A DNA stretch of 64,000 bases from Candidatus Neomicrothrix sp. UBA2974 (GCA_002348705.1 DEAU01000014.1:35699-99698); one strand, 5' to 3'. Counted from the stretch's first letter, positions 1,430-64,000 are shown. Numbers and translations are program-made. Notes: a model not told the origin generated them from the sequence alone.

Positions 1430-1446
1430 GAGAGGCAACCAAGCTC

Positions 1447-19248: not shown

Positions 19249-19349
19249 GCCACCGACCGTAGTAGCGGAGTAGCCGGGTCTGCGGACTCAGGCCGGTTCT
19301 CTTGCCCGGCTTCGCCGGAACTCGACCACCTCCACGAAGATTGTCGGTT

Positions 19350-42060: not shown

Positions 42061-43972
42061 CGATCACTCCGCGCTCGACGAGCAGTTTGAGAATGGCGTC
42101 GACGCACTCATCGACACTCTGGACTGACGCATCGAGCCGTAACTCCATATCGGTCGGCTGTTCGTAGTCCGACGAGACTCCTGGAAAGTTCGGAATCTCG
42201 CCTCGGTCCGCAGCCTCGTAATGGCCGTTCGGGTCCCGCTGGCGGCATACGTCGAGTGGGGTGTCTACGAATACTTCCAGAAATCGGTGTCCGCCAATGA
42301 GTTCCCGAGCCCTATCCCGCACCTCAACCTCGGGAGCGACGAGCGCTGCAATTGCGATCAGGCCTTGCCGGTTAGCGAGTAGAGCTACTTCGGCCACACG
42401 GCGAAGGTTCTCGGAACGGTCTTGGGAACTGAAGCCAAGGTCTCGGCTAATCCCAAGTCGAACATTCTCTCCATCAAGACGGACCGTCGTGCGTCCCAGG
42501 TCGAACAGGCGACGCTCCAGAGCGGCGGCGATAGTTGACTTTCCGGCAGCAGTTAGGCCTGTCAGAAGAACAGTGCACGGCCGTTGACCGAGACGGGCAA
42601 CCCTCTCCTCGGGAGTGATTTCGGAGCGATAGCGGACCAGTCCACCATCAGGTTCACGATCCCACCCCGAGGTGGCGCCAAGGATCATTCCTGCGGCCAC
42701 CGTAGCGTTGGTCATGCGGTCTACGAGAACGAAGGAACCGGTCTGGCGTCCCTCGCTGTAGGGGTCGAAAAGCAGGGCCCGCTCGGCCACCAACGTGCAG
42801 CACGCGATGTCATTCAGCGCTAGCGCATCGGCCGAGACTTCCTCACCACTGTTGACATCGATCCTGTGGTGTATGGCTGCCAATGAGGCGTCGACCTCGC
42901 CTCCGATTGAGCGCAGGATGAGGCGCCGGCCCGGTTTGACCGGGTCAGCGGCCATCCATACCAGGGTGGCGTTGACATCATGAGCCCGCGCAGGATGATG
43001 GTCGACACCGACGAGCAGGTCACCGCGGCTCACATCAATCTCGTCGGCAAGCGTGATGGTTACAGCGTCGCCGGGTTGGGCCTCGTCGAGATCACCGTCG
43101 AAGGTAACAATTCGTTCAACCGTAGATCTGACCGCCGATGGAAGAGCGACGACTTCGTCACCTAGGCGAAGCTTTCCGGCGGCAATAGTTCCGGCGAATC
43201 CTCGGAAGTCGAGGTCTGGCCGAACGACCAGTTGGACGGGAAACCGCAGCCAATCGAGATCAAGTGACTCAGATACGTCGACGGTCTCCAGGTATTCCAT
43301 GAGGGGCGGCCCGTCGTGCCAGCTGAGGTGTGAGCTTCTATCCACCACATTGTCGCCGTGGAGGGCGGATATGGGCATGTAGTGGGCATCAACCACGCCG
43401 AGACCGGAGGCAAAGGTCTGATGCTCGGCCGCCACCTCGTCGAACCGGTCCTGCGACCAGCCCACTAGGTCCATCTTGTTTATGGCCACGACCAGGTTTT
43501 GGATTCCCAGAAGATGGGCGATGAGTGTGTGTCGACGGGTCTGATCGAGGACTCCGTTTCGGGCATCGACCAGAACAACTGCGAGTTGGCAGTTGGAAGC
43601 GCCCGTCACCATATTTCGGGTGTACTGCTCGTGTCCGGGAGTGTCAGCGACGATGAACTTTCGTCTGGAAGTTGAGAAATAGCGGTAAGCCACATCAATG
43701 GTGATGCCCTGCTCGCGTTCCGCCTTCAAACCATCCATGAGAAGGGCTAGGTCCAGACCATCACCGGCCGACCCCATCGTCGTTGAGTCCGCTTCCAAAC
43801 TCGCCAGTTGGTCTTCGTAAATCATCGCCGAATCGTGGAGGAGGCGACCGATGAGTGTCGACTTGCCGTCGTCCACGCTGCCACACGTCAACAGCCTCAG
43901 GAGATCCTTTCGTTCGTGCTCAGCTAGATAGGCATCAATATCTGTGGCAATGAGCTCGGAGGCGTGGGACAT
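42053..43972 (-). CDS. cysNC: sulfate adenylyltransferase subunit 1 fused to an APS-kinase-like domain
   Basis: 639 aa. GTPase motifs GSVDDGKSTLIGRLL, DTPGH, NKMD. C-terminal ~185 aa are kinase-like with divergent motifs (GLTAAGKST, LDGENVR, LVAPEVEVR, DPNGHY). Confidence 0.9.
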   Translation of the reverse strand: MSHASELIATDIDAYLAEHERKDLLRLLTCGSVDDGKSTLIGRLLHDSAMIYEDQLASLEADSTTMGSAGDGLDLALLMDGLKAEREQGITIDVAYRYFSTSRRKFIVADTPGHEQYTRNMVTGASNCQLAVVLVDARNGVLDQTRRHTLIAHLLGIQNLVVAINKMDLVGWSQDRFDEVAAEHQTFASGLGVVDAHYMPISALHGDNVVDRSSHLSWHDGPPLMEYLETVDVSESLDLDWLRFPVQLVVRPDLDFRGFAGTIAAGKLRLGDEVVALPSAVRSTVERIVTFDGDLDEAQPGDAVTITLADEIDVSRGDLLVGVDHHPARAHDVNATLVWMAADPVKPGRRLILRSIGGEVDASLAAIHHRIDVNSGEEVSADALALNDIACCTLVAERALLFDPYSEGRQTGSFVLVDRMTNATVAAGMILGATSGWDREPDGGLVRYRSEITPEERVARLGQRPCTVLLTGLTAAGKSTIAAALERRLFDLGRTTVRLDGENVRLGISRDLGFSSQDRSENLRRVAEVALLANRQGLIAIAALVAPEVEVRDRARELIGGHRFLEVFVDTPLDVCRQRDPNGHYEAADRGEIPNFPGVSSDYEQPTDMELRLDASVQSVDECVDAILKLLVERGVIDV

Positions 43973-44880
43973 CAGAAGTAGCCCTCCCGCTTCTTTTCCT
44001 CCATCGAGCCCGCTTGATCGTGATCGATGACACGGCCCTCTCGTTCTGACCGAGTCGCAAGCAGCATTTCCTGGATAACTTCAGGCAACGTGGTCGCGGT
44101 GGACTCCACGGCCCCGGAGAGCGGATAACAGCCGAGCGTGCGAAATCTCACCGCGCGCATCTCAGGCGATTCGCCGTCAGTGAGCCTGAAACGCTCGTCG
44201 TCAACCATGATCAATGTGCCGTCCCTCTCCACCACCGGCCTAACGGCAGAAAAGTAGAGGGGCACGATCGAAATCTGCTCAAGATGGATGTACTGCCAGA
44301 CGTCCAGTTCAGTCCAGTTGCTGATTGGAAAAACCCGAATGCTCTCTCCCCGATGCACGCGACCGTTGTAGAGGTTCCAGAGTTCGGGTCGCTGGTTTTT
44401 TGGGTCCCAGCGGTGGTGCCGATCTCGGAAGCTGAAGACGCGCTCCTTGGCTCGGGATCGCTCCTCGTCGCGGCGGGCTCCGCCAAATGCTGCATCGAAT
44501 CCACCAGCCTCTAGGGCCTGCTTCAATGCCTCCGTCTTCATGACGTCGGTGTAGTTCCGAGACCCATGGTCGAAGGGATTGATGCCAGCCGCCACGCCCT
44601 CCTCGTTGGTGTGCACCACCAGTTCTAGGTCAAGGTCAGCAGCTGTACGATCGCGGAATTCGATCATCTCCCGGAACTTCCATGTGGTGTCCACATGAAG
44701 AAGCGGAAATGGGATGCGTCCGGGGTGGAACGCCTTCCGGGCCAGATGAAGCAGGACTGAAGAGTCCTTTCCGATGGAGTACAGCATGACCGGTCGCTCG
44801 AACTGAGCTACCACTTCGCGCATCACATGGATGCTCTCGGCTTCGAGTTGCTGCAGATGTGTGCGACGCATGACGTTCAC
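43972..44880 (-). CDS. cysD: sulfate adenylyltransferase subunit 2
   Basis: 302 aa. [29 protein letters not shown] (PP-loop). TGATG overlap with cysNC. The start is GTG 44880 or ATG 44871. Confidence 0.92.
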
Positions 44881-51115: not shown

Positions 51116-51151
51116 AGGGTCAGAGCGTGGTGAAGGGTCAGAGCGTGGTAA
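51116..51151 (+). repeat. tandem 18-bp direct repeat (2 copies, 17/18 identical)
   Basis: AGGGTCAGAGCGTGGTGA (51116-51133) followed by AGGGTCAGAGCGTGGTAA (51134-51151). Each copy carries an in-frame GTG (51127, 51145) preceded by AGGG. Confidence 0.9.
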
Positions 51152-52803
51152 GTGATTCCAAGAGAAGTACGGGCGATCAATTTCATTTCTCTGCGTCGGG
51201 GCGGAAACGAAGGCTGGGCGCCTGGTACACACCGGACGACGTGGTGGGTCAACTACTGGATTTAACTCTGACACCCCTTTTGATAGAGCGTCGGGTCCTT
51301 GGATTGGACGCCGTGGCCGCCCTAAGGGTTCTCGACCCGTCGTGTGGCGACGGGGCTTTCCTAGTGGCAGCCGCCGATCGCATCTACCGGACGCTTGTCG
51401 AGATGGGCCTCGAGCACACCGAAGCTCTCCGGACGGCATATGGATGTTGCGTCGTGGGCGTAGACGTCGACCCCTTGGCGGTGGACCGGTGCCGGCATCG
51501 CCTCGGCGAAGCCGGAGCGACCGCCCCTGATAGCCGAGTCGTGGTCGCCGACGCCCTTTTGACCTCAAGCGACGAATGGTCTGACCTCCTCGAACGGTGG
51601 GATACTCCGGCAGGCGTCACGGCGGTGATTGGTAATCCGCCGTTTCTGAATCCACTGGCCGCTGACACTGCTGCTGATCCGAATCGAGCTGTCGCCCTTC
51701 GACAGCGCTTCGGTTCAGTGGCTCAGGGCTACTCAAACCCGGCCTTCATGTTCTTGGTGTTGGCTACAGAACTAGCCGCCAGTCGGAACTCTGTAGTCGC
51801 CCTCATTCAGCCGTTGTCTCTGCTGGCAACCAGAGGCTCAACCGCCAGTCGAGCTGCTGTTCTCGAGAATTGGACACTCGACACCCTTTGGGTGGCTAAC
51901 CAGCGGGTATTCGATGCCTCTGTTGACGTGTGCGCTCCAGTACTTCGCCCTCGCGGGGAGTCCGATCTCGGTTCAGGTCTAACCAAGCTTCTCGCTGGCC
52001 GATCCTTTCACCCGGTCGGGACCGTCCCCTCCCCCAGTTCGGACGACGCCACCTGGTCCCGCCTTTTGGCGACAGTCCGCGATGTGCCCGACGTACCAAT
52101 CGCCACTGACGGCATCCTCGGCGACGATGCGATCGCCACCGCTGACTTCAGGGACCAGTACTACGGACTCGACGGGCAAATAGTCGAACTGCCGAGCAGC
52201 GACCGTTCCATGCCCCGATTGCTCACCGCTGGCCTAGTCGATCCAGCACATGACCGTTGGGGGGAAACAACCACCCGGTTCCACAAGAACTCCTGGCACC
52301 ACCCTCGGGTGCGACTAGACGGGTTGTCGGACGACCTTCGTCGCTGGGTCGACAGTCGATTGGTCCCAAAGGTTGTGGTCGCCACCCAGACTCGGGTTCT
52401 CGAAGCGGTAGTCGACTCCGATGGTTCATGCCTTCCGTCTGTTCCGCTAGTCACGATTACCCCGCGATCAGACAAACCTAAAACCGACCTTTGGCATATC
52501 GCTGCCCTGCTCACCTCACCTCCAGCCACGATGGTTGCAGCACGTCGACATCTCGGTGCAGCCTTGACCACCGATGGCCTAAAACTCCGAGCCCGCGACC
52601 TGGCCGCACTTCCCCGACCTCATGACCATGCGTCCTGGCACGAGGCGGCCAAAGCGTTCCAGAGGGCTTCGGACTCCGACGATCAGACCAGACGTAAAGA
52701 AGGGTTAGTGCGGTGCGGTCGACTGATGTGCACTGCCTTCGGCGTCGCTGATTTCGAGCACCTCTTGGCTTGGTGGGTTGGGCGCCTGCCAGGCCAGAAC
52801 TGA
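51127..52803 (+). CDS. gamma-class N6-adenine DNA methyltransferase (Eco57I/TaqI-like), solitary
   Basis: 558 aa. Motif order GAWYTP (X), DPSCGDGAFL (I), VIGNPPF (IV, nt 51634-51645), then a long C-terminal target-recognition-like region. No nuclease, helicase or specificity gene adjacent. Confidence 0.8.
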   Translation: MVKGQSVVSDSKRSTGDQFHFSASGRKRRLGAWYTPDDVVGQLLDLTLTPLLIERRVLGLDAVAALRVLDPSCGDGAFLVAAADRIYRTLVEMGLEHTEALRTAYGCCVVGVDVDPLAVDRCRHRLGEAGATAPDSRVVVADALLTSSDEWSDLLERWDTPAGVTAVIGNPPFLNPLAADTAADPNRAVALRQRFGSVAQGYSNPAFMFLVLATELAASRNSVVALIQPLSLLATRGSTASRAAVLENWTLDTLWVANQRVFDASVDVCAPVLRPRGESDLGSGLTKLLAGRSFHPVGTVPSPSSDDATWSRLLATVRDVPDVPIATDGILGDDAIATADFRDQYYGLDGQIVELPSSDRSMPRLLTAGLVDPAHDRWGETTTRFHKNSWHHPRVRLDGLSDDLRRWVDSRLVPKVVVATQTRVLEAVVDSDGSCLPSVPLVTITPRSDKPKTDLWHIAALLTSPPATMVAARRHLGAALTTDGLKLRARDLAALPRPHDHASWHEAAKAFQRASDSDDQTRRKEGLVRCGRLMCTAFGVADFEHLLAWWVGRLPGQN

Positions 52804-54664: not shown

Positions 54665-56953
54665 TCACGTGGATGAAGACATTCCTTGTGACCCGGACAG
54701 GGCGCGCCAGACCTGTTCAGCAGTGACCGGGATATCAACGTGTCGAACCCCGAAGTGTGAGAGAGCGTCAACCACTGCATTTTGGACCGCAGGCGTAGCT
54801 CCGATTGTGCCTGCCTCACCGATGCCCTTAACACCCAGTGGGTTAAGTGTCGTCGGGGTGACCTGCTCGATTCTCTCAAAGTAGGGGAATTCAGCCGCAG
54901 ATGGGATTCCGTAATCCGCGAAGTTCCCAGTCAACGGTGTTCCATCGTCGGTGTAACGGAACTCCTCGAGGAGGGCGTGAGCGATACCGCCTGCTACTCC
55001 ACCGTGTACCTGCCCATCGACAACCGCCGGGTTCACGATGACGCCAGCATCGTCACAGGAAACGTGACGCAGCACCGTGACACCCCCGGTTTCGCGGTCG
55101 ACTTCGACCACGCTGGCATGCGCGCCGAACGGGAATGTGGCGTTGTCCGACTTGAAGTCCGCCTCTGCTTCCAATGAGAGACCCCTCTCGCCAGCAGCGG
55201 CGGCCACTTCGTGCCAGTCGAGACGCACGGACGGTGAGCCAACCACTGTGAAGCCGCCAGTCTCCATGTCGAGTAGTACGTCCTCATGGCTGGCCTCCAG
55301 CAGATCAGCAGCCAGTCGACGAGCCTCATCGACCACCGCCTCTCCGGCCTTGAGGATGGCCGAACCTCCCACCTGTAGGGAGCGGGAACCTCCTGTCCCG
55401 CCGCCGCGAGCTACTTCATCCGTATCTCCGTGCCGAACCTCTATCCGATCGAAAGGGATGCCAAGCACGTCGGCGGCCACTTGCGCATAGGTGGTGTGGT
55501 GTCCCTGCCCGTGGGCGGACGATCCCGTCAGGACCAACGCTGTGCCGTCAGGCCGGATGGCCACACTGCCAAACTCCGAGGATTGCAACGGGTTCGTGAT
55601 TTCCACGTAGGCAGAAAATCCAATTCCCAAGAGCGGTGACGTTTCATCATCCCTGCGTCGGTCCTGGTCGGCCCGAAGGGCTTTGAGGTCAAGAGCTTCG
55701 ATAACCCTATTAAGCGCAGTCTGATAATCGCCGCTGTCGTACTCTTGACCGGAGGGCGTGGTGTACGGAAATGCATCTGGCGAGACAAGGTTTCGGCCTC
55801 TCAACTCGGCTGGATCCATTCCGATCTCTGCTGCGTAGACGTCGACGATGCGCTCGATGCCATGCGTGGCTTCAGGGCGACCGGCTCCTCGATAGGCGCC
55901 CATCGGGACGGTGTTGGTAACCCATGATGAGGCCGTGAATTCGATGCGTTGGATCGTGTAGGGACCGGTGGCCATGGCCTGACCGAATACAGGAAGAAAA
56001 GCTCCGATAGCTGGATAGGCACCAGCGTCCTGGTCCATGTGGAGCCGATAGGCAACCAAATTTCCACTTCGATCGCCTCCGAGCGTGGCTGTCATCGTGA
56101 GACCACGACCGTGCGCTAGGCCCAGCATTGATTCGCTGCGGGATTCCACCCAACAGACGGGACGCCCAAGACGGCGGGAAATTAGGGCAACAACTACATC
56201 CTCGGGGTAACTGCCGCTTTTGGCACCAAAACCGCCACCGACCTCAGGAGTGATGACACGAACATCCTCAGTTTCAACCCCACAAGCTGCGGCCAGGGTG
56301 TCGCGGGCCCGATGCGGAAATTGTGTGCATGACCACTGGGTCAGACGTAGACCTCCTCCGTCGTCGTCCCACCGGGCCACCGTCGCCCGAGGTTCGATCG
56401 GCGCGGCACTGAGGCGAGGATTCTCGAATACTTGCTCAACGACCACCTCGCATCCAGCAAAGAATGCTGGGTCAGGCTCATCTCCCATCGTGAAGCAGCA
56501 GTTCCCATCAGTATCCGGATGCAGCACCACATCCCCGCGTCGAGCGGCATCGAAACCGATTACAGCTGCTAAGGGCTCGACGTCAACCGCTACAAGTTCG
56601 GCTGCATCGGCTGCCTCCGCAGCCGATTCTGCGACGACTACGGCGACCGGCTCACCGACATAGCGCACCCGGTCAGTAGCAAGCGATGTCCGCCGCATCG
56701 ACTGGTTCAGGGCCGGCAGGGTTGGTGGTTCAGGCTGGAGATCTAGGTCGGCAGCGGTTAGGACGGCAATCACTCCTGGTCCACGAACTGCCTCTTCAGT
56801 GTCCACGCTAATTAGGCGACCATGAGCAACTGTCGATCGTACGAAAGTCGCAGTCAGGGCTCCCTCTGGGATGAGGTCAGCGACGTAGCTACCCGCCCCG
56901 ACGAGAAGTGGCCGGTCTTCGGTCCGTCGGACTGGTTGGCCTAGGAGTCCCAT
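54665..56953 (-). CDS. molybdopterin-binding large subunit of the xanthine dehydrogenase/CO dehydrogenase family (form-II CoxL-like)
   Basis: 762 aa. Aldehyde oxidase/XDH a/b-hammerhead and MoCo domains. Active-site loop AYRGAGR (form-II CoxL signature). No adjacent FeS (CoxS) or FAD (CoxM) subunit genes. Confidence 0.88.
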   Translation of the reverse strand: MGLLGQPVRRTEDRPLLVGAGSYVADLIPEGALTATFVRSTVAHGRLISVDTEEAVRGPGVIAVLTAADLDLQPEPPTLPALNQSMRRTSLATDRVRYVGEPVAVVVAESAAEAADAAELVAVDVEPLAAVIGFDAARRGDVVLHPDTDGNCCFTMGDEPDPAFFAGCEVVVEQVFENPRLSAAPIEPRATVARWDDDGGGLRLTQWSCTQFPHRARDTLAAACGVETEDVRVITPEVGGGFGAKSGSYPEDVVVALISRRLGRPVCWVESRSESMLGLAHGRGLTMTATLGGDRSGNLVAYRLHMDQDAGAYPAIGAFLPVFGQAMATGPYTIQRIEFTASSWVTNTVPMGAYRGAGRPEATHGIERIVDVYAAEIGMDPAELRGRNLVSPDAFPYTTPSGQEYDSGDYQTALNRVIEALDLKALRADQDRRRDDETSPLLGIGFSAYVEITNPLQSSEFGSVAIRPDGTALVLTGSSAHGQGHHTTYAQVAADVLGIPFDRIEVRHGDTDEVARGGGTGGSRSLQVGGSAILKAGEAVVDEARRLAADLLEASHEDVLLDMETGGFTVVGSPSVRLDWHEVAAAAGERGLSLEAEADFKSDNATFPFGAHASVVEVDRETGGVTVLRHVSCDDAGVIVNPAVVDGQVHGGVAGGIAHALLEEFRYTDDGTPLTGNFADYGIPSAAEFPYFERIEQVTPTTLNPLGVKGIGEAGTIGATPAVQNAVVDALSHFGVRHVDIPVTAEQVWRALSGSQGMSSST

Positions 56954-56965
56954 GCCGCTGGCCCC

Positions 56966-57481
56966 TCAGGCCCCAACTGGATCCGACGAAGATGCGCTAC
57001 CGACGGGCCGGGCCTCGCTGAACTCATCCACGATCCACCTAGTGGCAGGCGAGTAGACGTCAATGAACACCGCTGGCTCGTCACCTAGCACCTCGCCACC
57101 GTGTGGTGCATCGCTCGGTGCATACCAGCCGTCCCCGGGCCCTATCTCGCGAGATTCGTCTCCTACGGTCAGACGTAGGCGCCCCGACAGAAGCAGACTG
57201 AACTGCTCGTAAGGGTGACTATGCATCGCATACGGGGTCCCGGGTGGATATGTGGCACGGATCAAATGCATGTTCTCCCCGCTGAGTATCTGACCCTCGA
57301 ACCCACCGTCGTACCAGCTGAAGCGGTCAACTTCACTCCATGAGAAGATCCGCCGGTTTGTAGTCTGAACCCCATACTCGTTCGTCTTCCCCTGAGCCAT
57401 GACTTCACTCTCCCGGTCGCGGTGCGTCGTCTCATGGGTTCGATCCGCGCTGGATGGCGCGGCTTCGTTCCCAGTATTCAT
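56966..57481 (-). CDS. cupin-domain protein
   Basis: ORF 171 aa. ATG 57400 (MAQGKTNEY) is preceded by GGGAGAG and is the likelier start. Cupin motifs AMHSHPYEQFSLLLSG ... GDGWYAPSDAPHGG. Confidence 0.7.
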   Translation of the reverse strand: MNTGNEAAPSSADRTHETTHRDRESEVMAQGKTNEYGVQTTNRRIFSWSEVDRFSWYDGGFEGQILSGENMHLIRATYPPGTPYAMHSHPYEQFSLLLSGRLRLTVGDESREIGPGDGWYAPSDAPHGGEVLGDEPAVFIDVYSPATRWIVDEFSEARPVGSASSSDPVGA

Positions 57482-60084
57482 GCCGTCTTCTCCATCCGTG
57501 TAGACGCTACGAAGTCGGCAGCCAGACGCAGCATCTCTCTGGCAACCATCGGCGCGGCGTTCTGGTTCTGGCCGGTAACGAGGTTGCCATCAACTACCCA
57601 GTGGTTGGCAAACGGATCGCGAAATCGGGTTTCGCTCTCAAAGTGCGCTCCAAGCTTGCGCAGTTCGGTTTCGGGATGTTGTGGTGTGCTGGCAATGCCG
57701 AGCTCGTATACCTGCTTGTCGGTTACCCCTGTGACCCGTCGACCCTGCACGAGTGGTGAGCCGTCTTTGGCCTTAGCTCGGATCAATCCGAGTGGGCCAT
57801 GGCAGACGCCGCCGATTACTCGCTCGTGCTCATTTGCCACTGTGATCTGTCGTCCAAGTTGTTCTGAGGAGCCAAGGTCAAACGCTGCACCCCAACCACC
57901 GGCGAGATAGACAATGTCATAGTCGGCCATCTCCAGATCGGCGACGATAAGGGAATCGTTCACCTTGGCCCTGAGGTCGTCGTCGGCTAAGAAGCGGTCA
58001 CAGGCATCGGTGCGCAGCACACCCTTGAGCGATTGTGGGTCGACGGGGATCACGCCGCCGTTGGGGCTGGCGACGTCGACGGTCATACCGGCATCGAAGA
58101 AGGCGTAATAGGGCACGGTGAGCTCGCTCGAGAAGACTCCCGTGGGTTTGCCCACATCGAGCACGCCGTGGTTCGTGGCGATGACCACAGCTCGCCGGCC
58201 CATCAGGTCGACATCAATGGCTTCGGTGTCGCGTGGATGCATGCCAACCAAATTGAGGAGCTTTCGCACAACACGTGCGAGGGGAAGCGCCTTTTTCGCT
58301 GCTGGACGTCCGATTCGGGTGAGAACGGCATAGGGCCATGGATGGTTGCGTTGAGGAACAGCTCGTGTTCGTTCATTGGCAAGACGAATAGCCATAAGGT
58401 CAAACACTGCTGCTGCTTCCGCTTCTTCCCAGCGGTTCTCGGCTTCGATTGGGTCGGAGTCGAGGTCGTAGAGCTCCCACTGGTCGGGAAGCGGAGTTGA
58501 GCGGTAGGTGTCGCCGGCCGCTCCAGTGCTAGCCAGGTGCCGGACGCCAGGTTCAGTCCATGTTTCCGGATCGTCGAAGCTGCGGACGATCTTCCAGAGG
58601 TTTCCTCCCCCGCCGACGGCATCTACTTCATCAACACGACTAATAACGCTCTCGAAATTGGCAGCCACGTGAGCGGGCACGCGTATACGTAGCGATGGTG
58701 GTTGACTGTCGATTCGCCCTAGGCGGCGGGCCATGCCGCTAGCACCAGAGTCACCCTCTGGCATGTTGTCTCGAGTGATCGCGTAGACGGTGCGATCACG
58801 GTCTGGGTCAGCAGCGCCGTCGAGCACTGGTGTGAGGTCACGCCCCGGCAAAGGGTGTAGTTCACTGAAAAAAGCTCGCATGCGTTGGGAGGTCGCATCC
58901 ACGTCAATTCCTGCTGCAGCAAGCAGGGTGGGTACCAGGTCAATATGTGACGTGGGCGCATCGTTGACCACGAGGGCGGTCGTCGGCCTGGTTCCGATTC
59001 TGGCGATCGTGAACGGCACGCGGGTCGCCTCGTCGTAGAGGTTGAACCATTTCTGATGGAGCCCCCCATGGGCTCCGAGCAGCTCACCATGATCAGAGGT
59101 CCGGACCAGTATCGCATCGTCGGAGCCACTCTCGCTGACTGCTCGACGAACCCGATCGAGTGGTGCGTCGGAAGAGAGGTGCAGCCGGTAGTAGAGGTTT
59201 CGGTATTCCTGTGCCCGTTGACGGTAAGTCCGTTCGACGACTGGTGGTGGGCCGTAGGTCGATGGGTAGGAAGCTCTGTACGCGACCTGTGCTGCAGGCT
59301 TCGACGCTAGGTCTTCGTGGTCGGTGGGCGATGCGGGAACGTCGGGTGGGTTGTCGGCATCGGTTGCGAACGGACTGTTCGGGCCGATTTGTCCGAGCCA
59401 AGCCGGCGTGTAGACGATGTCGTGCGGGTTGACAAAGCACACGACCAACAGAAAAGGCCTCTGCGCATTTTCGTCGCCGACGCGCCTCAGCGCGTATCGA
59501 TCTTTTAGCCAGTCGACGGCTCGGTCGGCAAATATTGGGTCGCAAATCAGCCCGGACTGGGCTGGTGACGGACCGTGGGGTTCAGGTCCGACCCATCCCG
59601 AAAATCCGAAACTATCGAGTGGATCGGCCTCGAGGTAGGCCTGCACTGCTAATTGATCCAGGGCGCCACGGGCGTCGTGGGTAGCCAGGGCGTTTCCGGT
59701 AGCCGGGTCCACCAGGTCGGCATGGCTCATATGCCACTTTCCTACGTACTTGGTGTCATAACCGCTGGAACGAAACCAATGGCCAAGTGTCGGAACCTCG
59801 CTGGGTCGAAGCCACCGCATTCGCGAGTCGTCCGCCATCTTCCCGAGGCCGTTTGTCTGGGTGACGCCATGGACGTCGGGGTAGTGGCCAGTGAACAATG
59901 TTGGTCTACTGGGAACGCAGGCGAGCGAGCCTGTGTAGTGGCGCCGAAATGAAACCCCGTTGTCTTCGAACCACCGTGCCCCGGTCAACTTCTCGCTACG
60001 CCACGCTGCGATCTCCTTTGACTCATAAGGCGGGGCAGCACGTTCCTGATCAGTCATGAGGACGATCACGTCGGGAGGTTTCAT
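57478..60084 (-). CDS. fusion protein: choline-sulfatase-like Cys-type sulfatase (aa 1-~590) + DJ-1/PfpI (Hsp31-like) domain (aa ~630-868)
   Basis: VIVLMTDQER (DQ-type metal site), CVPSRPTLFTG, TSDHGELLGAHG, WELYDLDSDPIEAEN. Then VVIATNHGVLDVGKPTGVFSSELTVPYY, YLAGGWG, GGVCHGPLGL, VDGNLVTGQN. Confidence 0.85.
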   Translation of the reverse strand: MKPPDVIVLMTDQERAAPPYESKEIAAWRSEKLTGARWFEDNGVSFRRHYTGSLACVPSRPTLFTGHYPDVHGVTQTNGLGKMADDSRMRWLRPSEVPTLGHWFRSSGYDTKYVGKWHMSHADLVDPATGNALATHDARGALDQLAVQAYLEADPLDSFGFSGWVGPEPHGPSPAQSGLICDPIFADRAVDWLKDRYALRRVGDENAQRPFLLVVCFVNPHDIVYTPAWLGQIGPNSPFATDADNPPDVPASPTDHEDLASKPAAQVAYRASYPSTYGPPPVVERTYRQRAQEYRNLYYRLHLSSDAPLDRVRRAVSESGSDDAILVRTSDHGELLGAHGGLHQKWFNLYDEATRVPFTIARIGTRPTTALVVNDAPTSHIDLVPTLLAAAGIDVDATSQRMRAFFSELHPLPGRDLTPVLDGAADPDRDRTVYAITRDNMPEGDSGASGMARRLGRIDSQPPSLRIRVPAHVAANFESVISRVDEVDAVGGGGNLWKIVRSFDDPETWTEPGVRHLASTGAAGDTYRSTPLPDQWELYDLDSDPIEAENRWEEAEAAAVFDLMAIRLANERTRAVPQRNHPWPYAVLTRIGRPAAKKALPLARVVRKLLNLVGMHPRDTEAIDVDLMGRRAVVIATNHGVLDVGKPTGVFSSELTVPYYAFFDAGMTVDVASPNGGVIPVDPQSLKGVLRTDACDRFLADDDLRAKVNDSLIVADLEMADYDIVYLAGGWGAAFDLGSSEQLGRQITVANEHERVIGGVCHGPLGLIRAKAKDGSPLVQGRRVTGVTDKQVYELGIASTPQHPETELRKLGAHFESETRFRDPFANHWVVDGNLVTGQNQNAAPMVAREMLRLAADFVASTRMEKTA

Positions 60085-60524
60085 GGCGTGTCCTGCTCTA
60101 GGTGGGCTTTCAGCCCCTCAAGCATGTCGCGTGAGGCCTTGGCCAGAACTCGACCGAAGACCCGGGCCATCACCTGTTGGGGCGGTCGGGGTCCAGTGTC
60201 GATGCGGCTCGTGATCGTCACGGTTGTTCCAGCATCTGTGCGGACAAGTTTCCATGCATTGGATGCCGAGCGAACGACACTCGGCAATCCTTCGATGCTG
60301 TAACGGATTTCGCGGCCAGGCGCCCACTCGGTGACACGTTCTAGGAGCGCGTTCCGGTCGATCTGGACCCGTCTCACGCTGCCTACACCCTCCTTATGTC
60401 CACTTGTGAGGCATGAATGGGCGACGTTTGGCGCCCAACGGCTGATTTCGCCAAAGTCGGCCAGAGTGGCCCAGACGGTTTCTGGCGAACGAGCCATCAC
60501 CATCCTCTCTGTGATCTCAATCAT
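60081..60524 (-). CDS. SRPBCC-superfamily protein (polyketide cyclase/CoxG-like ligand-binding fold)
   Basis: 147 aa. SPETVWATLADFGEISRWAPNV...GVGSVRRV pattern. 4-nt overlap with the sulfatase fusion. Confidence 0.7.
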   Translation of the reverse strand: MIEITERMVMARSPETVWATLADFGEISRWAPNVAHSCLTSGHKEGVGSVRRVQIDRNALLERVTEWAPGREIRYSIEGLPSVVRSASNAWKLVRTDAGTTVTITSRIDTGPRPPQQVMARVFGRVLAKASRDMLEGLKAHLEQDTP

Positions 60525-60594: not shown

Positions 60595-61122
60595 TTAGCG
60601 ATCTCGTGAAGCTAGTTGTAGACCCGGAACCTTGGCTGGGTCAGTCTCGGAGGGCGCAAGGCGCTCAAGCCGCGCCGTATACCCGAGGTATTCCCAAACC
60701 ATTTTCTCGCCCTCGCGCCTGCGACGGATCTCGATCGCCCTGCCTTGTGGACGAAGAACATGCTCTCCGTCCTCGTAGGTAGCCGCCACGTGAATCTCGG
60801 TGGCCTTGTCGAACTCAGCAACGTCGTTGACTCCCCGTTCCAAAGTGCCGTCACAGCGCATGTCGTGGATGATGCCTCCAGCGGTGACGACCATACGGTC
60901 ACCACGTTGTTCGACTCGCTGGACGTGCCCCAGGCCCAGGTGGTCGAGTTGCTCCTTACCGTCGATCAGGACCTCGACCGTCCGCCAGTAGCCGTCAAGG
61001 TCGGGAGCGTTCACCGGCGCGGATTCGGCGCATCCAGCCAGGACCGGGGGCGGCCAGACAGTCCAGCCCCCATCAGGAGTGTGGGCCACCGGGATGTCGT
61101 CGATAGCGCTTTGGGTATTCAT
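60595..61122 (-). CDS. hypothetical protein
   Basis: 175 aa. 4-nt overlap with the upstream sulfatase stop. No motif recognised. Beta-rich composition. Confidence 0.55.
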   Translation of the reverse strand: MNTQSAIDDIPVAHTPDGGWTVWPPPVLAGCAESAPVNAPDLDGYWRTVEVLIDGKEQLDHLGLGHVQRVEQRGDRMVVTAGGIIHDMRCDGTLERGVNDVAEFDKATEIHVAATYEDGEHVLRPQGRAIEIRRRREGEKMVWEYLGYTARLERLAPSETDPAKVPGLQLASRDR

Positions 61123-63407
61123 TGGCGCGACATCTCCGTTCTGGCCGTCGCTGCCTCCTCGGCCCGCGGAACGAAGCCCGCTTTCTGAGCTCGCGGTTGC
61201 GGCAGTTGGATCACGATCTCATGCAAAGTTCCGGTGAACGCGAACGGCGCCGAATAGCGGTGCGACACGGCCGAGCCGTGGTCCTCCCCAATGCTGGCGC
61301 CCACCGAAGAGATGATTCTCATGTACGAAGTGATCTGTGCTCGGCCACAGGCCTCACCATCGACGAAGACTTCGATCCAACCGGAAGAGCGACTATCGCG
61401 TTCCAAGTGGACACCAAGAGAACTGTCACCGGCTGGCACCTTGATGGTCGACTCAACGATCGTATGGTCGCCGAACGAGTTGTAGTCGACGACCAGACGG
61501 CCATTCTGCAAAAAGACTGAAAAGCCTGAGTTAACGGTACCGGTCGCCCATAGGACGCCTTCATCGCCTGGCTCACTCGTGATTCGCGCGGCGAGGTCGA
61601 CGGCGCGACCGCCCAGCCCTGCAGCAGCACCTGCAGGAATCGGCGACATGGGCGGACGGTATATGTAGCGACGATTGAGACGGTGTGGAGAATGGTCGCT
61701 CGGATGCGCGGCAAATAGCTCGATCGTGCGATCGTCGAGTGGGAGGACGCCGTGGCGTTCAGCTTCCTGCCACCACAGGTCCACCAGTTCCGCGAGCTTC
61801 CGTCGTTCTAAATCAGCCAGATTGATGCACTCTGAAGGATCGGTGCTGAGGTCGTAGAGTTCCCAGGGCTCGGCGTCGAAATCGTCGCCCGGATTGTGCT
61901 TGGTTACCGCTTTCCACCAGACCCCTTCTCTTTCGGCGACCAAAGCCCGACTGCCAGAGTTCTCAAAGTATTGGAGCGTGTTTGTCGCTGGTGCCTCCGC
62001 ATCGCCTAGAGGGACCTTGAAAGAATGGCCCGTGACCGGCATCTGCTCGATTCCCTTGTGTACTTCCGGAGGTATGACACCAAGGATTTCGTAGATCGTC
62101 GGAGTGATGTCTGACACGTTCACGAACTGCGAGCGTTTCGTACCGACCTGTCCTGTTCCGAAGCCGGCAGGCCAGTGCATGACCATTGGCACGTGGACGC
62201 CACCCTCGTGGGTGCTCTGCTTGTACCACCGGAACGGCGAATTGCCGCACTGGGCCCAGCCCCACGGGTAGTTGGTGTGGCTGTTTGGGCCCCCGATGTC
62301 ATCAATGCGCTGGATGGCTTCGTCAGGTGATTCCAGAATGCCGTTGAAGAACTTCATTTCGTGCAGCACGCCGAACGGGCCACCCTCCTGCGACGCACCG
62401 TTGTCAGCCAGTACCACGAGGATGGTGTTGTCAAGTTCGCCCATCGCCCGAAGTCCTTCGACCAGACGCCCGATCTGGTCGTCGGTGTGGTCCAGGAAAG
62501 CTGCGAAGGCCTCCTGGAGTCGACACGCCAGCCGACGTTGCGTTTCGGGCAGGTCGTCCCAGGCTTCAACGCCGGGGTTCCGGGGCGCAAGTTCTGTGTC
62601 GGGAGGGATCACGCCAAGTTCGAGCTGACGCTGGTACCAGCGTTGACGCACCACGTCCCAGCCCTCGTCGTAGCGGCCCCGATACTTGTCGAGGTAGGCC
62701 TGTGGGGCCTGATGTGGGGCATGTGTGGCGCCAAACGGCAGATAGGCGAAGAACGGTCGGTCCGGCCTCACCCCCTTGCTGTCGGTAATCATTTGAAGCA
62801 GTTGGTCGACTAGGTCCTCGCTCAGGTGATAGCCGTCCTGGGGTATTGACGGTGGGGCAATGTGACTGTTGTCTCGGACAAGCTCGGGATAGAACTGGTC
62901 GGTCTCGCCCTCCAGGAAACCGTAGAAGCGGTCGAAGCCGCGTCCCAGTGGCCACTGGTCGAACGGTCCTGCTGCCGAGGTGTCCTGGGTAGGCGCGAGA
63001 TGCCACTTTCCGGCACAGAAGGTGGCATATCCCTCGGCGTGCAGGACCTCTGCGATGGTAGACGCCGAGTTCGAGATGTGGCCGAGTTGATGCGGGAACC
63101 CTGTACGCCAGTTGGACACGCCCCGTAGTCCAACTGCGTGCTGCGACCGACCGGTAAGTAACGCCGCACGCGTCGGTGAGCAAAGTGGTGTGACGTGGAA
63201 GTTTGTGAACTGCACGCCACCAGCAGCAAGCGCGTCCACATTTGTAGTGTCGATGTCGGAGCCGTAACAGCCGAGTTGGGCGAATCCCGTGTCGTCGAGG
63301 AGCACGATCACTACGTTGGGTGCGTCCTCGCCCGGGTGGGGCGGCTCCATGTAGTGCGGCTCAGAGTCCACCAGCGTCCGGCTGATCGTTCCCTTGAACT
63401 CGCTCAT
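61119..63407 (-). CDS. large arylsulfatase (AtsA-like, Cys-type), paralog of 26676..29006
   Basis: 762 aa. VVIVLLDDTGFAQLGCYG, CSPTRAALLTGRSQH, GKWHL, ADNGAS. Collinear similarity to the 776-aa sulfatase, including the C-terminal extension. No signal peptide. Confidence 0.9.
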   Translation of the reverse strand: MSEFKGTISRTLVDSEPHYMEPPHPGEDAPNVVIVLLDDTGFAQLGCYGSDIDTTNVDALAAGGVQFTNFHVTPLCSPTRAALLTGRSQHAVGLRGVSNWRTGFPHQLGHISNSASTIAEVLHAEGYATFCAGKWHLAPTQDTSAAGPFDQWPLGRGFDRFYGFLEGETDQFYPELVRDNSHIAPPSIPQDGYHLSEDLVDQLLQMITDSKGVRPDRPFFAYLPFGATHAPHQAPQAYLDKYRGRYDEGWDVVRQRWYQRQLELGVIPPDTELAPRNPGVEAWDDLPETQRRLACRLQEAFAAFLDHTDDQIGRLVEGLRAMGELDNTILVVLADNGASQEGGPFGVLHEMKFFNGILESPDEAIQRIDDIGGPNSHTNYPWGWAQCGNSPFRWYKQSTHEGGVHVPMVMHWPAGFGTGQVGTKRSQFVNVSDITPTIYEILGVIPPEVHKGIEQMPVTGHSFKVPLGDAEAPATNTLQYFENSGSRALVAEREGVWWKAVTKHNPGDDFDAEPWELYDLSTDPSECINLADLERRKLAELVDLWWQEAERHGVLPLDDRTIELFAAHPSDHSPHRLNRRYIYRPPMSPIPAGAAAGLGGRAVDLAARITSEPGDEGVLWATGTVNSGFSVFLQNGRLVVDYNSFGDHTIVESTIKVPAGDSSLGVHLERDSRSSGWIEVFVDGEACGRAQITSYMRIISSVGASIGEDHGSAVSHRYSAPFAFTGTLHEIVIQLPQPRAQKAGFVPRAEEAATARTEMSRQ

Positions 63408-63420
63408 CGGATCTCCTCGT

Positions 63421-64000
63421 TCAGACGGTGACGGTAGTGAGGTCGCCGCCGATGATGACTTCGCCGGAGTAATGTTCGGCCGCCAGAGCTATCCACTCCG
63501 GATATGTCTCAGGCGTGGGTGCCGGCACCATGTGGGTGAAGGCAAGTCGCTTTGCACCAACCCGTTCAGCGGTCTGAGCCGCCTCCACGACGCCCGAGTG
63601 GTAGTCGAGGATGTCCTGCATCATGGGATTAGGTATCAGTTCGACGAGGTCGCGGCGAATCACCGTTTGGACGTAGACGTCAGCGCTGCGAGCTAGTTCG
63701 TCGACTCCCTCACATGGGACAGTGTCTCCGACAAGCGCAGCGGTGCTGCCGCCGTGCTCGAGGCGGAATCCGATTGTCGGCCGCACGGGTGCATGTTCGG
63801 TCGCCTCGGTGGATATCTCGACATCACCAACGATAAAAGAGTCCCCAGGAACCAACTCGGTAACGCGAACTTTGGGCGGACCAAGAAGGACTTCGTGGTG
63901 CTCGATTCGGTAGCCGATGTCCGGCTCAAGGGCATTTAGTTGCCGATCAACAAACTCGGCCGTGCCAACCGGACCATAGATAGGGAGTGTCGCTTTGCCC
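63421..64000 (-). CDS. MBL-fold metallo-hydrolase (5' end beyond window)
   Basis: ORF track starts at TTG 63855, but the frame stays open to the window edge (..GKATLPIYGPVGTAEFVDRQLNALEPDIGYRIEHHEVLLGPPKVRVTELVPGD..). C-terminal LAFTHMVP / DLTTVTV is typical of RNase Z/MBL-like proteins. Confidence 0.65.
   Translation of the reverse strand, partial: GKATLPIYGPVGTAEFVDRQLNALEPDIGYRIEHHEVLLGPPKVRVTELVPGDSFIVGDVEISTEATEHAPVRPTIGFRLEHGGSTAALVGDTVPCEGVDELARSADVYVQTVIRRDLVELIPNPMMQDILDYHSGVVEAAQTAERVGAKRLAFTHMVPAPTPETYPEWIALAAEHYSGEVIIGGDLTTVTV

What the first reader, a model, noticed from the sequence alone, without database searches (positions are those of the whole stretch)
57478..60084. Sulfatase fused in-frame to a DJ-1/PfpI (Hsp31-like) domain
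Seen: one 868-aa ORF.
- Residues 1-~590 are a complete Cys-type sulfatase of the DQ (choline-sulfatase-like) variety: MTDQER, CVPSR, TSDHGELLGAHG, ELYDLDSDPIE.
- Residues ~630-868 carry DJ-1/PfpI hallmarks, including the nucleophile elbow GGVCHGP and the GKPTG-x-SSE / VDGNLVTGQN motifs.
- There is no stop or frame change between the two parts.
Known: DJ-1/Hsp31 proteins act as glyoxalase III, deglycases, amidases or chaperones. I know of no described sulfatase carrying this domain, but that is from memory and not searched.
Inference: either a second catalytic step on the desulfated product (for example an aldehyde or amide), or a built-in chaperone or maturation function.
Basis: partly seen in the sequence, partly recalled or inferred. 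Interest (0 to 1): 0.65.

Follow-up and report, generated by a model that had tools for sequence, protein, structure and literature searches.

The report
Sulfatase fused to DJ-1-type enzyme
This is a real, widely conserved bacterial protein that joins a sulfate-ester-cleaving enzyme to a DJ-1/Hsp31-type cysteine enzyme, and it reveals that this DJ-1 subfamily is a regular but unstudied partner of sulfatases in at least two bacterial phyla.

Summary
One 868-aa ORF at 57478-60084, on the minus strand, encodes a complete Cys-type S1 sulfatase (residues 1 to ~590), a flexible linker, and a complete Hsp31/Glx3-class DJ-1 domain (~626-868). It is not an assembly artefact: the identical protein is on 20 independently assembled contigs, and at least 580 species genomes, mostly Acidimicrobiia, encode full-length relatives. 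Catalytic motifs of both halves are kept in 119-121 of 121 homologues.

The architecture is common and auto-annotated, but I found no characterisation of it.

The new point is context. This DJ-1 subfamily carries a G(L/M)HP(E/D)Y motif before the fold and is coupled to sulfatases in several ways:
- fused to a novel S1 sulfatase (this gene);
- fused to an ElaC/S4-like MBL hydrolase whose best solved match is an arylsulfatase;
- encoded as a separate membrane-anchored protein next to exported PAS-like sulfatases in marine Cellvibrionales (19 of 27 dereplicated loci).

Both phyla share more of the cluster: PAS-like arylsulfatase, MBL protein, TetR, a DUF1330-like protein, a GST-like protein and a lipid-binding-fold protein.

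Most likely it is a catabolic module for a hydrophobic sulfated metabolite, in which the DJ-1 cysteine performs a second catalytic step. The substrate and that reaction are unknown.

The parts
57478..60084 (-). Complete 868-aa ORF encoding the sulfatase-linker-DJ-1 fusion protein (stop codon 57478-57480)
58315..60084 (-). S1 formylglycine-type sulfatase part (residues 1 to ~590), with no signal peptide
   Evidence: Pfam Sulfatase 4-393 and SGSH_C 533-572; S1 sulfatase fold matches; N-terminus read directly
59905..59919 (-). Formylglycine consensus C56-V-P-S-R60
   Evidence: C.PSR present in 121/121 homologues
58210..58314 (-). Inter-domain tether (residues ~591-625). The first part varies in length among homologues. 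The second part is a conserved helix plus the GMHP motif.
   Evidence: The WPY-to-GMHP distance is 26-104 residues in 116 homologues; low pLDDT at 579-594
58234..58245 (-). G-M-H-P motif (residues 614-617), the hallmark of the sulfatase-associated DJ-1 subfamily (GLHPEY in stand-alone members)
57481..58209 (-). Hsp31/Glx3-class DJ-1 domain (residues ~626-868)
   Evidence: Pfam DJ-1_PfpI; 1u9c E 1.3e-32, 4p5p, 4lru Glx3; Foldseek TM 0.89 and 0.88
57799..57804 (-). Nucleophile-elbow Cys761-His762
   Evidence: CHG present in 121/121 fusions and 121/121 stand-alone modules; aligned to the Glx3/Hsp31 Cys-His
60081..60524 (-). SRPBCC (Polyketide_cyc2) small-ligand-binding protein; its stop overlaps the fusion start (ATGA)
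   Evidence: directly upstream of the fusion in 77/80 genome loci; fused to the same sulfatase in P0123 and P0130
60595..61122 (-). 175-aa protein with no Pfam hit and a predicted 10-stranded beta-barrel that resembles intracellular lipid-binding proteins
   Evidence: homologues also occur in the gammaproteobacterial clusters
61119..63407 (-). 762-aa S1 arylsulfatase, a homologue of P. aeruginosa AtsA (PAS), with a ~200-aa C-terminal extension
   Evidence: present in 50/80 genome loci
63424..64000 (-). 3' part of a 273-aa ElaC/RNase Z-like MBL hydrolase gene, cut by the window end
   Evidence: best solved match 8gyg 'Arysulfatase', E 1.4e-19; present in 46/80 loci
56966..57481 (-). Cupin_2 protein whose start overlaps the fusion stop (ATGA); a lineage-specific addition to the operon
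   Evidence: absent from the 80 related loci
54665..56953 (-). Molybdopterin hydroxylase large subunit (aldehyde oxidoreductase/CoxL-like), last gene of the operon; lineage-specific
   Evidence: absent from the 80 related loci

Best explanation
The gene encodes a genuine cytoplasmic two-enzyme protein. A formylglycine-dependent S1 sulfatase of an uncharacterised subfamily is tethered by a flexible linker to a catalytically intact Hsp31/Glx3-class DJ-1 domain. That DJ-1 domain belongs to a subfamily, marked by a G(L/M)HP(E/D)Y motif before the fold, that is a dedicated genomic partner of sulfatases. In this window the gene sits in one operon: MBL hydrolase, PAS-like arylsulfatase, lipid-binding-fold protein, SRPBCC, the fusion, cupin, Mo-hydroxylase.

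Proposed mechanism: a hydrophobic sulfated small molecule (an aryl, steroid, terpenoid or alkyl sulfate) is held by the SRPBCC and calycin-like binding proteins. The sulfatases remove the sulfate ester(s). Cys761 of the tethered DJ-1 domain then carries out a second covalent-catalysis step on the same metabolite. That step is most plausibly the conversion or quenching of a reactive carbonyl or electrophile exposed by desulfation, or the cleavage of a second labile bond. The fusion ensures 1:1 stoichiometry and proximity.

Shown: domain content, conservation, operon structure, and recurrent sulfatase/DJ-1 coupling. Inferred: the substrate class and the DJ-1 reaction.
For: The fusion is real and conserved. 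Catalytic motifs of both halves are present in 119-121 of 121 homologues, and the DJ-1 half is at least as conserved as the sulfatase half (median 72% vs 67% identity). All fusions fall in one 50%-identity cluster, which indicates a single origin that has been maintained. The tether varies from 26 to 104 residues and is low-complexity, so the two domains are independent.

Coupling of this DJ-1 subfamily to sulfatases: it is fused to an MBL hydrolase whose best solved match is an arylsulfatase (P0240). Stand-alone membrane-anchored modules in marine Cellvibrionales have an S1 sulfatase within 3 kb downstream in 19 of 27 dereplicated loci. The module follows the sulfatase's compartment: cytoplasmic here, exported or anchored there.

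Shared accessory genes across the two phyla: PAS-like sulfatase, MBL, TetR, hyp175 family, DUF1330-like, GST-like, DUF2855, SRPBCC.

Hydrophobic-substrate clues: SRPBCC is adjacent in 77/80 loci and is fused to the same sulfatase in P0123/P0130; hyp175 has a lipid-binding-protein fold; a TetR-type regulator is present.

Electrophile or carbonyl clues: GST-like, DsbA-like and CMD proteins occur in the clusters. In this lineage an aldehyde-oxidoreductase-type Mo enzyme and a cupin are translationally coupled downstream.
Against: No substrate or activity has been measured for any member. The nearest characterised DJ-1 relatives are glyoxalase III enzymes at only E ~1e-18, and the closest structures (1u9c, REP24) have no known function. 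The third triad acid of Glx3/Hsp31 aligns to an invariant Val, with an invariant Glu two residues later, so the chemistry may differ. The MBL partner scores highest against RNase Z models (298 bits, below the cutoff of 363), so calling it a sulfatase is uncertain. The MBL-DJ-1 fusion rests on one representative from a 3-kb contig. About 30% of stand-alone modules have no sulfatase nearby. The AlphaFold inter-domain geometry is unreliable (pTM 0.62), so there is no evidence of channelling. The cupin and Mo-enzyme genes are not conserved partners.
Confidence: 0.5

Rival explanations
1. The DJ-1 domain does not act on the metabolite. It serves the sulfatase as a holdase or chaperone, an oligomerisation module, or a redox- or electrophile-sensing switch that uses its reactive cysteine.
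For: The Hsp31-class relatives are deposited as chaperone proteins as well as glyoxalases (molecule names). DJ-1 superfamily proteins typically form dimers (established knowledge). The flexible tether fits an accessory module. The module follows the sulfatase into whichever compartment it occupies.
Against: Invariance of Cys-His and the upstream Glu in 121/121 fusions and of Cys-His in 121/121 stand-alone modules argues for catalysis. The module partners with structurally unrelated hydrolases (S1 and MBL folds), which is hard to reconcile with a fold-specific chaperone.
Confidence: 0.2
2. The DJ-1 domain is an ordinary glyoxalase III (methylglyoxal detoxification), fused or adjacent by chance or for co-regulation, with no mechanistic link to desulfation.
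For: The best characterised relatives are C. albicans Glx3 and yeast Hsp31. The top NCBIfam hit for this half is HchA glyoxalase III.
Against: The HchA model scores 35 bits against a cutoff of 365. Chance does not explain an S1 sulfatase next to 19 of 27 stand-alone modules in another phylum, or the alternative fusions. The gammaproteobacterial modules appear to be exported or membrane-anchored, and by my own reasoning that is an unlikely place for methylglyoxal detoxification.
Confidence: 0.1
3. The DJ-1 domain matures or repairs the sulfatase's formylglycine aldehyde, as a built-in maturation or deglycase-type function.
For: Formylglycine is an aldehyde and DJ-1 cysteines react with aldehydes (established chemistry). 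No FGE domain was found in the ORFs of this window that I scanned.
Against: The same module is fused to, and clustered with, an MBL-fold hydrolase; by established knowledge that fold class uses a metal centre and has no formylglycine. Oxidising Cys to formylglycine needs an oxidant and a cofactor, which the DJ-1 fold lacks (established knowledge). FGE could be encoded elsewhere in the genome; this was not tested.
Confidence: 0.07
4. The fusion is an artefact: a misassembly, a lost stop codon or a frameshift that joins two separate genes.
For: None found.
Against: The identical ORF occurs on 20 independently assembled contigs. At least 580 species encode colinear full-length relatives, including complete chromosomes and cultured strains. 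A conserved linker motif is present.
Confidence: 0.01

Closest known systems
Formylglycine-dependent S1 sulfatases: P. aeruginosa arylsulfatase AtsA/PAS (1hdh), S. meliloti choline sulfatase BetC (6fny), and phosphonate monoester hydrolases (4upk)
   Same: Alkaline-phosphatase-type fold, the C-x-P-S-R formylglycine motif, and the metal and catalytic residues D12, Q13, K116, H118, H221, D331, H332 and K345. Like PAS it has no signal peptide, so it is cytoplasmic.
   Different: It is only distantly related to any solved sulfatase (E ~1e-13; TM 0.55-0.69) and fails the choline-sulfatase and arylsulfatase equivalog cutoffs. It carries a C-terminal DJ-1 domain. None of the solved sulfatase chains matched also matched the DJ-1 half.
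Hsp31/Glx3-class DJ-1 proteins: C. albicans Glx3 (4lru) and S. cerevisiae Hsp31 (YDR533c), which are glutathione-independent glyoxalase III enzymes
   Same: About 225-aa DJ-1 fold, nucleophile-elbow Cys-His, and a conserved upstream Glu.
   Different: Similarity is low (E 1e-18 to 1e-13). The triad acid aligns to Val792, with Glu794 nearby. It has an extra N-terminal G(L/M)HP(E/D)Y element. It is fused to or clustered with sulfatases. No activity is known.
Uncharacterised DJ-1 family structures 1u9c (APC35852) and 4p5p (Francisella REP24)
   Same: These are the closest by sequence (E 1e-32 and 3e-29) and by fold (TM 0.88-0.89) over the whole DJ-1 domain.
   Different: They are stand-alone ~225-aa proteins that lack the N-terminal motif. 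The papers I found give no biochemical function for REP24, and I made no literature search on 1u9c.
SulfAtlas family S4: the MBL-fold arylsulfatase AtsA of Pseudoalteromonas carrageenovora, derived from ElaC
   Same: The conserved 273-aa MBL neighbour, and the MBL half of the P0240 MBL-DJ-1 fusion, both have the deposited arylsulfatase 8gyg as their closest solved MBL-fold match. S4 is described as derived from ElaC (PMC5066984).
   Different: This concerns the partner gene, not the fusion itself. The partner scores higher against RNase Z models, though below their cutoff, and S4 membership was not established.

Membership tests
S1 formylglycine-dependent sulfatases (Pfam PF00884 / SulfAtlas S1) | Sulfatase/alkaline-phosphatase-type catalytic domain plus C-terminal subdomain | tested here: met
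   PF00884 E 2.9e-43 (148.7 bits, cutoff 25) and SGSH_C 29.9 bits (cutoff 29.3). The Foldseek top hits for this half are S1 sulfatases.
S1 formylglycine-dependent sulfatases (Pfam PF00884 / SulfAtlas S1) | C/S-x-P-x-R formylglycine consensus near the N-terminus | tested here: met
   C56-V-P-S-R60 followed by PTLFTG. C.PSR is present in 121/121 homologues.
S1 formylglycine-dependent sulfatases (Pfam PF00884 / SulfAtlas S1) | Metal-binding and catalytic residues (two N-terminal acidic/polar residues, Lys/His pair, His, Asp-His, Lys) | tested here: met
   D12-Q13, K116, H118, H221, D331-H332 and K345 are present, and their motifs are kept in 119-121/121 homologues. The assignment is by motif, not by a solved structure.
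S1 formylglycine-dependent sulfatases (Pfam PF00884 / SulfAtlas S1) | Post-translational formylglycine formation and sulfate-ester hydrolysis | not testable with these tools
   No FGE domain was found in the scanned ORFs of the window. The rest of the genome was not available.
Choline sulfatase BetC (NCBIfam TIGR03417) | Score above the curated equivalog cutoff | tested here: not met
   88.1 bits against a cutoff of 433.45, and only partial coverage.
DJ-1/PfpI superfamily, Hsp31/Glx3 class | DJ-1 fold with a nucleophile-elbow cysteine | tested here: met
   PF01965 50.4 bits (cutoff 26.6). TM 0.89 to 4p5p and 0.88 to 1u9c. Cys761 lies in GGVCHGP, and the motif is kept in 121/121 homologues.
DJ-1/PfpI superfamily, Hsp31/Glx3 class | His directly after the Cys, and the conserved upstream Glu (equivalent to DJ-1 Glu18) | tested here: met
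   His762 and Glu654 align with the corresponding residues of Glx3, Hsp31 and 1u9c and are kept in 121/121 homologues.
DJ-1/PfpI superfamily, Hsp31/Glx3 class | Third triad acid (Glx3 Glu168 / Hsp31 Glu170) | tested here: inconclusive
   In the phmmer alignment that position is the invariant Val792, and an invariant Glu794 lies two residues later. The residue numbers for Glx3 and Hsp31 are from memory plus my own count on the alignment.
Glyoxalase III HchA (NCBIfam NF003168) | Score above the curated equivalog cutoff | tested here: not met
   35.4 bits against a cutoff of 365.
Sulfatase-associated DJ-1 subfamily (defined here) | G(L/M)HP(E/D)Y-type motif before the DJ-1 fold, plus fusion to or adjacency with a sulfatase-type hydrolase | tested here: met
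   GMHP at residues 614-617. G.HP is present in 120/121 fusions, and GLHPEY and variants are present in stand-alone modules. An S1 sulfatase lies within 3 kb in 19/27 dereplicated stand-alone loci.

The most novel reading that the evidence does not exclude
The G(L/M)HP(E/D)Y DJ-1 modules are a previously unrecognised class of sulfatase-coupled enzymes with a new, non-glyoxalase activity. They catalyse an obligatory second step in the breakdown of a widespread class of hydrophobic sulfated metabolites, for example by handling a reactive carbonyl or quinone-type product. If so, they would give the Hsp31/DJ-1 superfamily one of its first physiologically anchored substrates. They would also define a conserved multi-gene sulfated-lipid or phenolic catabolic system shared by Acidimicrobiia (including sponge symbionts) and marine Cellvibrionales.
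Probability: 0.35. Interest if true: 0.75.

Novelty: new variant of a known kind. Interest (0 to 1): 0.55.

Why it matters
Sulfate esters are a large pool of organic sulfur and carbon in soils and oceans (established knowledge), yet SulfAtlas notes that few sulfatases have a characterised substrate (PMC5066984). The physiological substrates of DJ-1/Hsp31 proteins are also disputed (my own knowledge).

A DJ-1 subfamily that is repeatedly fused or adjacent to sulfatases gives a concrete and testable handle on both problems. It is found in at least 580 actinobacterial species and many marine Gammaproteobacteria, including cultured strains. Identifying the sulfated substrate of the cluster should also reveal what this DJ-1 cysteine enzyme does. 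The cluster occurs in sponge symbionts and abundant marine heterotrophs, so it may matter for the turnover of sulfated lipids, steroids or phenolics.

Tried and rejected
1. My first neighbourhood tblastn used a DJ-1 sub-query cut out of frame, which gave spuriously patchy DJ-1 hits. Redone in frame, it hit 80/80 loci.
2. The literature searches on sulfatase plus DJ-1, PfpI, Hsp31, SulfAtlas or type 1 glutamine amidotransferase, and on sulfatases in Acidimicrobiia and sponges, found nothing relevant. No paper was found for PDB entry 8GYG. The REP24 papers are crystallography-methods papers with no functional data.
3. The cupin and Mo-hydroxylase genes downstream are translationally coupled in this lineage but absent from all 80 related loci. 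I rejected them as core partners.
4. The context of an unfused sulfatase relative (P0131) and of the sulfatase-SRPBCC fusion P0123 showed no DJ-1 gene, so it was uninformative for coupling.
5. I looked for an FGE in the window by Pfam scans of about 50 ORFs and found none. This proves nothing about the genome as a whole.
6. The AlphaFold full-length model (pTM 0.62, low-confidence linker, no coordinates or PAE accessible) could not be used to judge whether the two active sites face each other.
7. The misassembly or lost-stop explanation is rejected.
8. The choline-sulfatase and HchA assignments are rejected on curated cutoffs.
Full report
**1. Observation**

The ORF list shows a single ATG-initiated 868-codon ORF at 57478..60084 on the minus strand. 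The plus-strand translation of the same span is full of stops, and the minus-strand translation is uninterrupted.

Pfam passes its curated cutoffs for three domains:
- Sulfatase, residues 4-393, E 2.9e-43;
- SGSH_C, residues 533-572;
- DJ-1_PfpI, residues 650-853, E 3e-13.

The gene is on the minus strand. The 'choline-sulfatase-like' label is not a family assignment, because the choline-sulfatase equivalog scores 88 bits against a cutoff of 433.

**2. Artefact check**

The identical 868-aa protein is encoded on 20 contigs assembled independently from TARA/ENA, JGI and Logan data. A search of 5.8 billion proteins returned 120 listed clusters at 65-100% identity, all 842-947 aa long and all with the same three Pfam domains.

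A scan of one genome per GTDB species found at least 580 genomes encoding a colinear full-length relative. Most are Acidimicrobiia: Ilumatobacteraceae, Microthrixaceae and the sponge symbionts Ca. Poriferisocius and Ca. Poriferisodalis. The list also includes complete chromosomes and the cultured strains Actinospongicola halichondriae Hal317 and Nocardioides hankookensis. Misassembly or a lost stop codon is excluded.

In an exhaustive search of 50%-identity representatives, only one full-length representative appeared (P0121). All fusions therefore form one tight clade, consistent with a single fusion event that has been maintained since.

**3. Are both halves functional?**

In 121 full-length homologues, the sulfatase motifs TD[QE]ER, C.PSR, GKWH, NPHD, DHG[ED] and HQKW are present in 119-121. 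The DJ-1 motifs SE[LM]T, xCHG and GQNQN are present in 121. The DJ-1 half is at least as conserved as the sulfatase half (median 72% against 67% identity across 80 genomes).

*Sulfatase half.* It is only remotely similar to solved sulfatases. By sequence the best matches are at E ~1e-13 (a phosphonate monoester hydrolase, choline sulfatase, BT1596). By fold, target-normalised TM is 0.55-0.69. It represents a distinct, uncharacterised S1 lineage. It has no signal peptide.

*DJ-1 half.* It aligns end to end with ~225-aa stand-alone proteins: 1u9c (E 1.3e-32), Francisella REP24 4p5p (2.7e-29), C. albicans glyoxalase III 4lru (2.2e-18) and yeast Hsp31. TM is 0.88-0.89 to 4p5p and 1u9c. Cys761-His762 and Glu654 align with the catalytic Cys-His and Glu of the glyoxalases. 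The third triad acid aligns with an invariant Val792, and an invariant Glu794 lies two residues on, so that position is ambiguous. The HchA equivalog model is far below its cutoff (35 against 365 bits).

*Tether.* It varies from 26 to 104 residues, with S/T/A-rich inserts in the longest versions. It ends in a conserved helix plus a GMHP motif. The AlphaFold model has a low-confidence linker and pTM 0.62. The picture is of two independently folding enzymes on a flexible leash.

**4. Local context**

On the minus strand the genes run as follows:

| Gene | Window coordinates |
|---|---|
| MBL hydrolase (cut by the window end) | 63424-64000 |
| 762-aa sulfatase | 61119-63407 |
| 175-aa protein, no Pfam hit | 60595-61122 |
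| SRPBCC | 60081-60524 |
| Fusion | 57478-60084 |
| Cupin | 56966-57481 |
| Mo-hydroxylase large subunit | 54665-56953 |

Three junctions are ATGA overlaps and the other gaps are 12-70 nt. No promoter-like site was found in the region, and none of the three terminator-like matches (below the shuffle expectation) separates genes of the operon. This is one operon.

Presence of each neighbour across 80 related genome loci:

| Neighbour | Loci with a hit |
|---|---|
| SRPBCC (directly upstream) | 77 |
| TetR-like ~200-aa protein | 51-52 |
| 762-aa sulfatase | 50 |
| MBL protein | 46 |
| DUF1330-like protein | 41-42 |
| GST-like protein | 14-16 |
| hyp175 | 13-14 |
| Cupin | 0 |
| Mo enzyme | 0 |

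The cupin and Mo enzyme are therefore lineage-specific additions.

What the partners are:
- **762-aa sulfatase:** a clear homologue of P. aeruginosa arylsulfatase AtsA/PAS (1hdh, E 2.8e-84, aligned over almost the whole 536-residue chain), plus a ~200-aa extension.
- **MBL protein:** ElaC/RNase Z-like (298 bits, below the cutoff of 363). Its best solved match is 8gyg, deposited as an arylsulfatase (E 1.4e-19). SulfAtlas family S4 consists of such ElaC-derived MBL arylsulfatases (PMC5066984).
- **hyp175:** it models confidently (pLDDT 92.3) as a 10-stranded beta-barrel. Its PDB matches are almost all intracellular lipid-, retinol- or bile-acid-binding proteins. The matches are weak (E ~1e-3, TM 0.5-0.67) but of that one protein class.

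**5. Rosetta-stone evidence**

Among 50%-identity representatives:
- **P0123 and P0130:** the same sulfatase (61% and 51% identity) fused to SRPBCC in place of DJ-1.
- **P0240:** an exported lipoprotein-type MBL hydrolase, again closest to 8gyg, fused to this DJ-1 module (52% identity).
- **P0220:** a multi-pass membrane domain fused to the module.
- **P0211 and P0217:** stand-alone modules with an N-terminal membrane anchor.

All keep a G(L/M)HP(E/D)Y-type motif before the DJ-1 fold, which 1u9c and 4p5p lack.

**6. The unfused arrangement**

The stand-alone modules belong to marine Cellvibrionales Gammaproteobacteria: Porticoccaceae, Halieaceae, Oceanicoccus sagamiensis, Pseudohalioglobus sediminis and Pseudomaricurvus alkylphenolicus. 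NCBI names them only 'type 1 glutamine amidotransferase domain-containing protein'.

In L090 the gene order is BCCT transporter, DJ-1 module, a 125-aa membrane protein predicted to span the membrane several times, and an exported, C-terminally anchored S1 sulfatase that is 31% identical to the window's PAS-like sulfatase.

A metagenome scan returned 80 such loci, which form 43 clusters at 95% nucleotide identity. Of the 27 clusters with at least 2.5 kb of downstream sequence:
- 19 have an S1 sulfatase within 3 kb downstream;
- 18 have the small membrane protein;
- 3-6 carry homologues of each of the actinobacterial MBL, TetR, hyp175 and DUF1330-like genes.

GST-like proteins recur in both phyla. 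The complete genome of cultured O. sagamiensis shows, within about 16 kb of the DJ-1 gene, two S1 sulfatases, three GST-like proteins, DUF2855, SRPBCC, SDRs and thioesterases.

The sulfatase/DJ-1 partnership is therefore not peculiar to the fusion. It recurs in a second phylum, and the module follows the sulfatase's compartment: cytoplasmic in Acidimicrobiia, exported or anchored in Gammaproteobacteria.

**7. Mechanism**

*Shown.* This is a bifunctional protein with two intact active sites on a flexible tether. It lies in an operon with a PAS-like arylsulfatase, an ElaC/S4-like MBL hydrolase and two small hydrophobic-ligand-binding folds. The DJ-1 subfamily has a statistically obvious genomic coupling to sulfatase-type hydrolases.

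*Inferred.* The cluster degrades a hydrophobic sulfated metabolite, possibly one with several sulfate groups given up to three sulfatase-type enzymes. The DJ-1 cysteine performs a second step on that metabolite. Candidates are isomerisation or hydrolysis of a reactive carbonyl, quenching of an electrophile exposed by desulfation, or cleavage of a second labile bond.

Weak support for an electrophile or carbonyl comes from the thiol and electrophile enzymes in the clusters (GST-like, DsbA-like, CMD). It also comes from the aldehyde-oxidoreductase-type Mo enzyme coupled downstream in this lineage. I put about 0.5 on this general mechanism.

*Rivals.*
- A non-catalytic chaperone, sensor or oligomerisation role: 0.2.
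- Generic glyoxalase III with no link to desulfation: 0.1.
- Formylglycine maturation or repair: 0.07. This is disfavoured because the module also partners with an MBL hydrolase that has no formylglycine, and because DJ-1 lacks oxidative chemistry.
- Artefact: 0.01.

**8. Comparison and novelty**

The N-terminal half meets the testable defining features of S1 sulfatases but fails the choline-sulfatase and arylsulfatase equivalog cutoffs. The C-terminal half meets the fold and Cys-His-Glu features of the Hsp31/Glx3 class but fails the HchA cutoff, and its third triad position is ambiguous.

The architecture is already in public databases and is partly auto-annotated. I found no paper that mentions it. 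I rate it a new variant of known kinds: an S1 sulfatase with an appended Hsp31-class domain, which defines a sulfatase-associated DJ-1 subfamily. It is not categorically new.

Interest is 0.55. The fusion is common and mechanistically unresolved. Even so, the cross-phylum coupling offers a tractable route to a physiological substrate for an Hsp31-class enzyme and to the function of an abundant, unstudied sulfatase cluster, and cultured hosts are available.

Noticed in passing
window 19302-20795 (+) and 26676-29006 (-): Two further S1 sulfatase genes. One encodes a 497-aa protein, 60% identical to a sulfatase that lies next to the fusion gene in a sponge-symbiont genome. The other encodes a 776-aa PAS-like protein, 49% identical to the 762-aa operon sulfatase, and is followed by an M20 peptidase gene. 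This makes four S1 sulfatases in 64 kb.
   Followed up: partly
window 41428-44880 (-): A sulfate-activation operon: a CysD-like gene (PAPS_reduct domain), a CysN-APS kinase fusion, and an additional stand-alone APS kinase. That gives two APS-kinase domains in a row, in a genome region rich in sulfatases.
   Followed up: no
window 54665-56953 (-): A molybdopterin hydroxylase large subunit. Its best NCBIfam hit is glyceraldehyde dehydrogenase alpha, at 611 bits, below the cutoff of 790. No adjacent small (FeS) or medium (FAD) subunit genes are present. It is translationally linked, through a cupin gene, to the fusion gene, but only in this lineage.
   Followed up: partly
window 60595-61122 (-): A family of 1083 'hypothetical proteins' with no Pfam domain. 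It models confidently as a 10-stranded beta-barrel resembling FABP, CRBP and bile-acid-binding proteins. It has many invariant Arg, His, Asp and Cys residues (for example H-D-M-R-C-D, positions 85-90 in the alignment tool's numbering). It might bind an anionic sulfated lipid or be an enzyme.
   Followed up: partly
window 92-5836 (+): A Rieske ring-hydroxylating oxygenase alpha subunit, a DAO-family oxidase and a 951-aa sarcosine-oxidase-alpha-like protein. This gene set is typical of glycine-betaine, dimethylglycine and sarcosine catabolism. A BCCT transporter sits next to the unfused DJ-1/sulfatase pair in L090.
   Followed up: no
window 13669-14556 (-): A TauD/TfdA-family dioxygenase. This is the family that includes the S2 alkylsulfatase AtsK and taurine dioxygenase. 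A TauD gene also lies near the fusion in L086.
   Followed up: no
window 51127-52803 (+): A 558-aa N6-adenine DNA methyltransferase-like protein with weak similarity to BREX PglX. No restriction or BREX partner genes are evident nearby.
   Followed up: no
L090 5326-5703; L091 3996-4385; P0220 N-terminus: A ~125-aa membrane protein with no Pfam or NCBIfam hit and several predicted transmembrane helices. It lies between the stand-alone DJ-1 gene and the sulfatase in 18 of 27 dereplicated gammaproteobacterial loci. A comparable multi-pass membrane domain is fused to the DJ-1 module in P0220.
   Followed up: partly
P0097-P0114 (for example P0113, residues ~600-703): The longest-linker versions of the fusion carry 80-104-residue S/T/A/R-rich low-complexity inserts in the tether. 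Loci from sponge-symbiont (Ca. Poriferisodalis) genomes are among the longest matches, but I did not map these proteins to those genomes.
   Followed up: no
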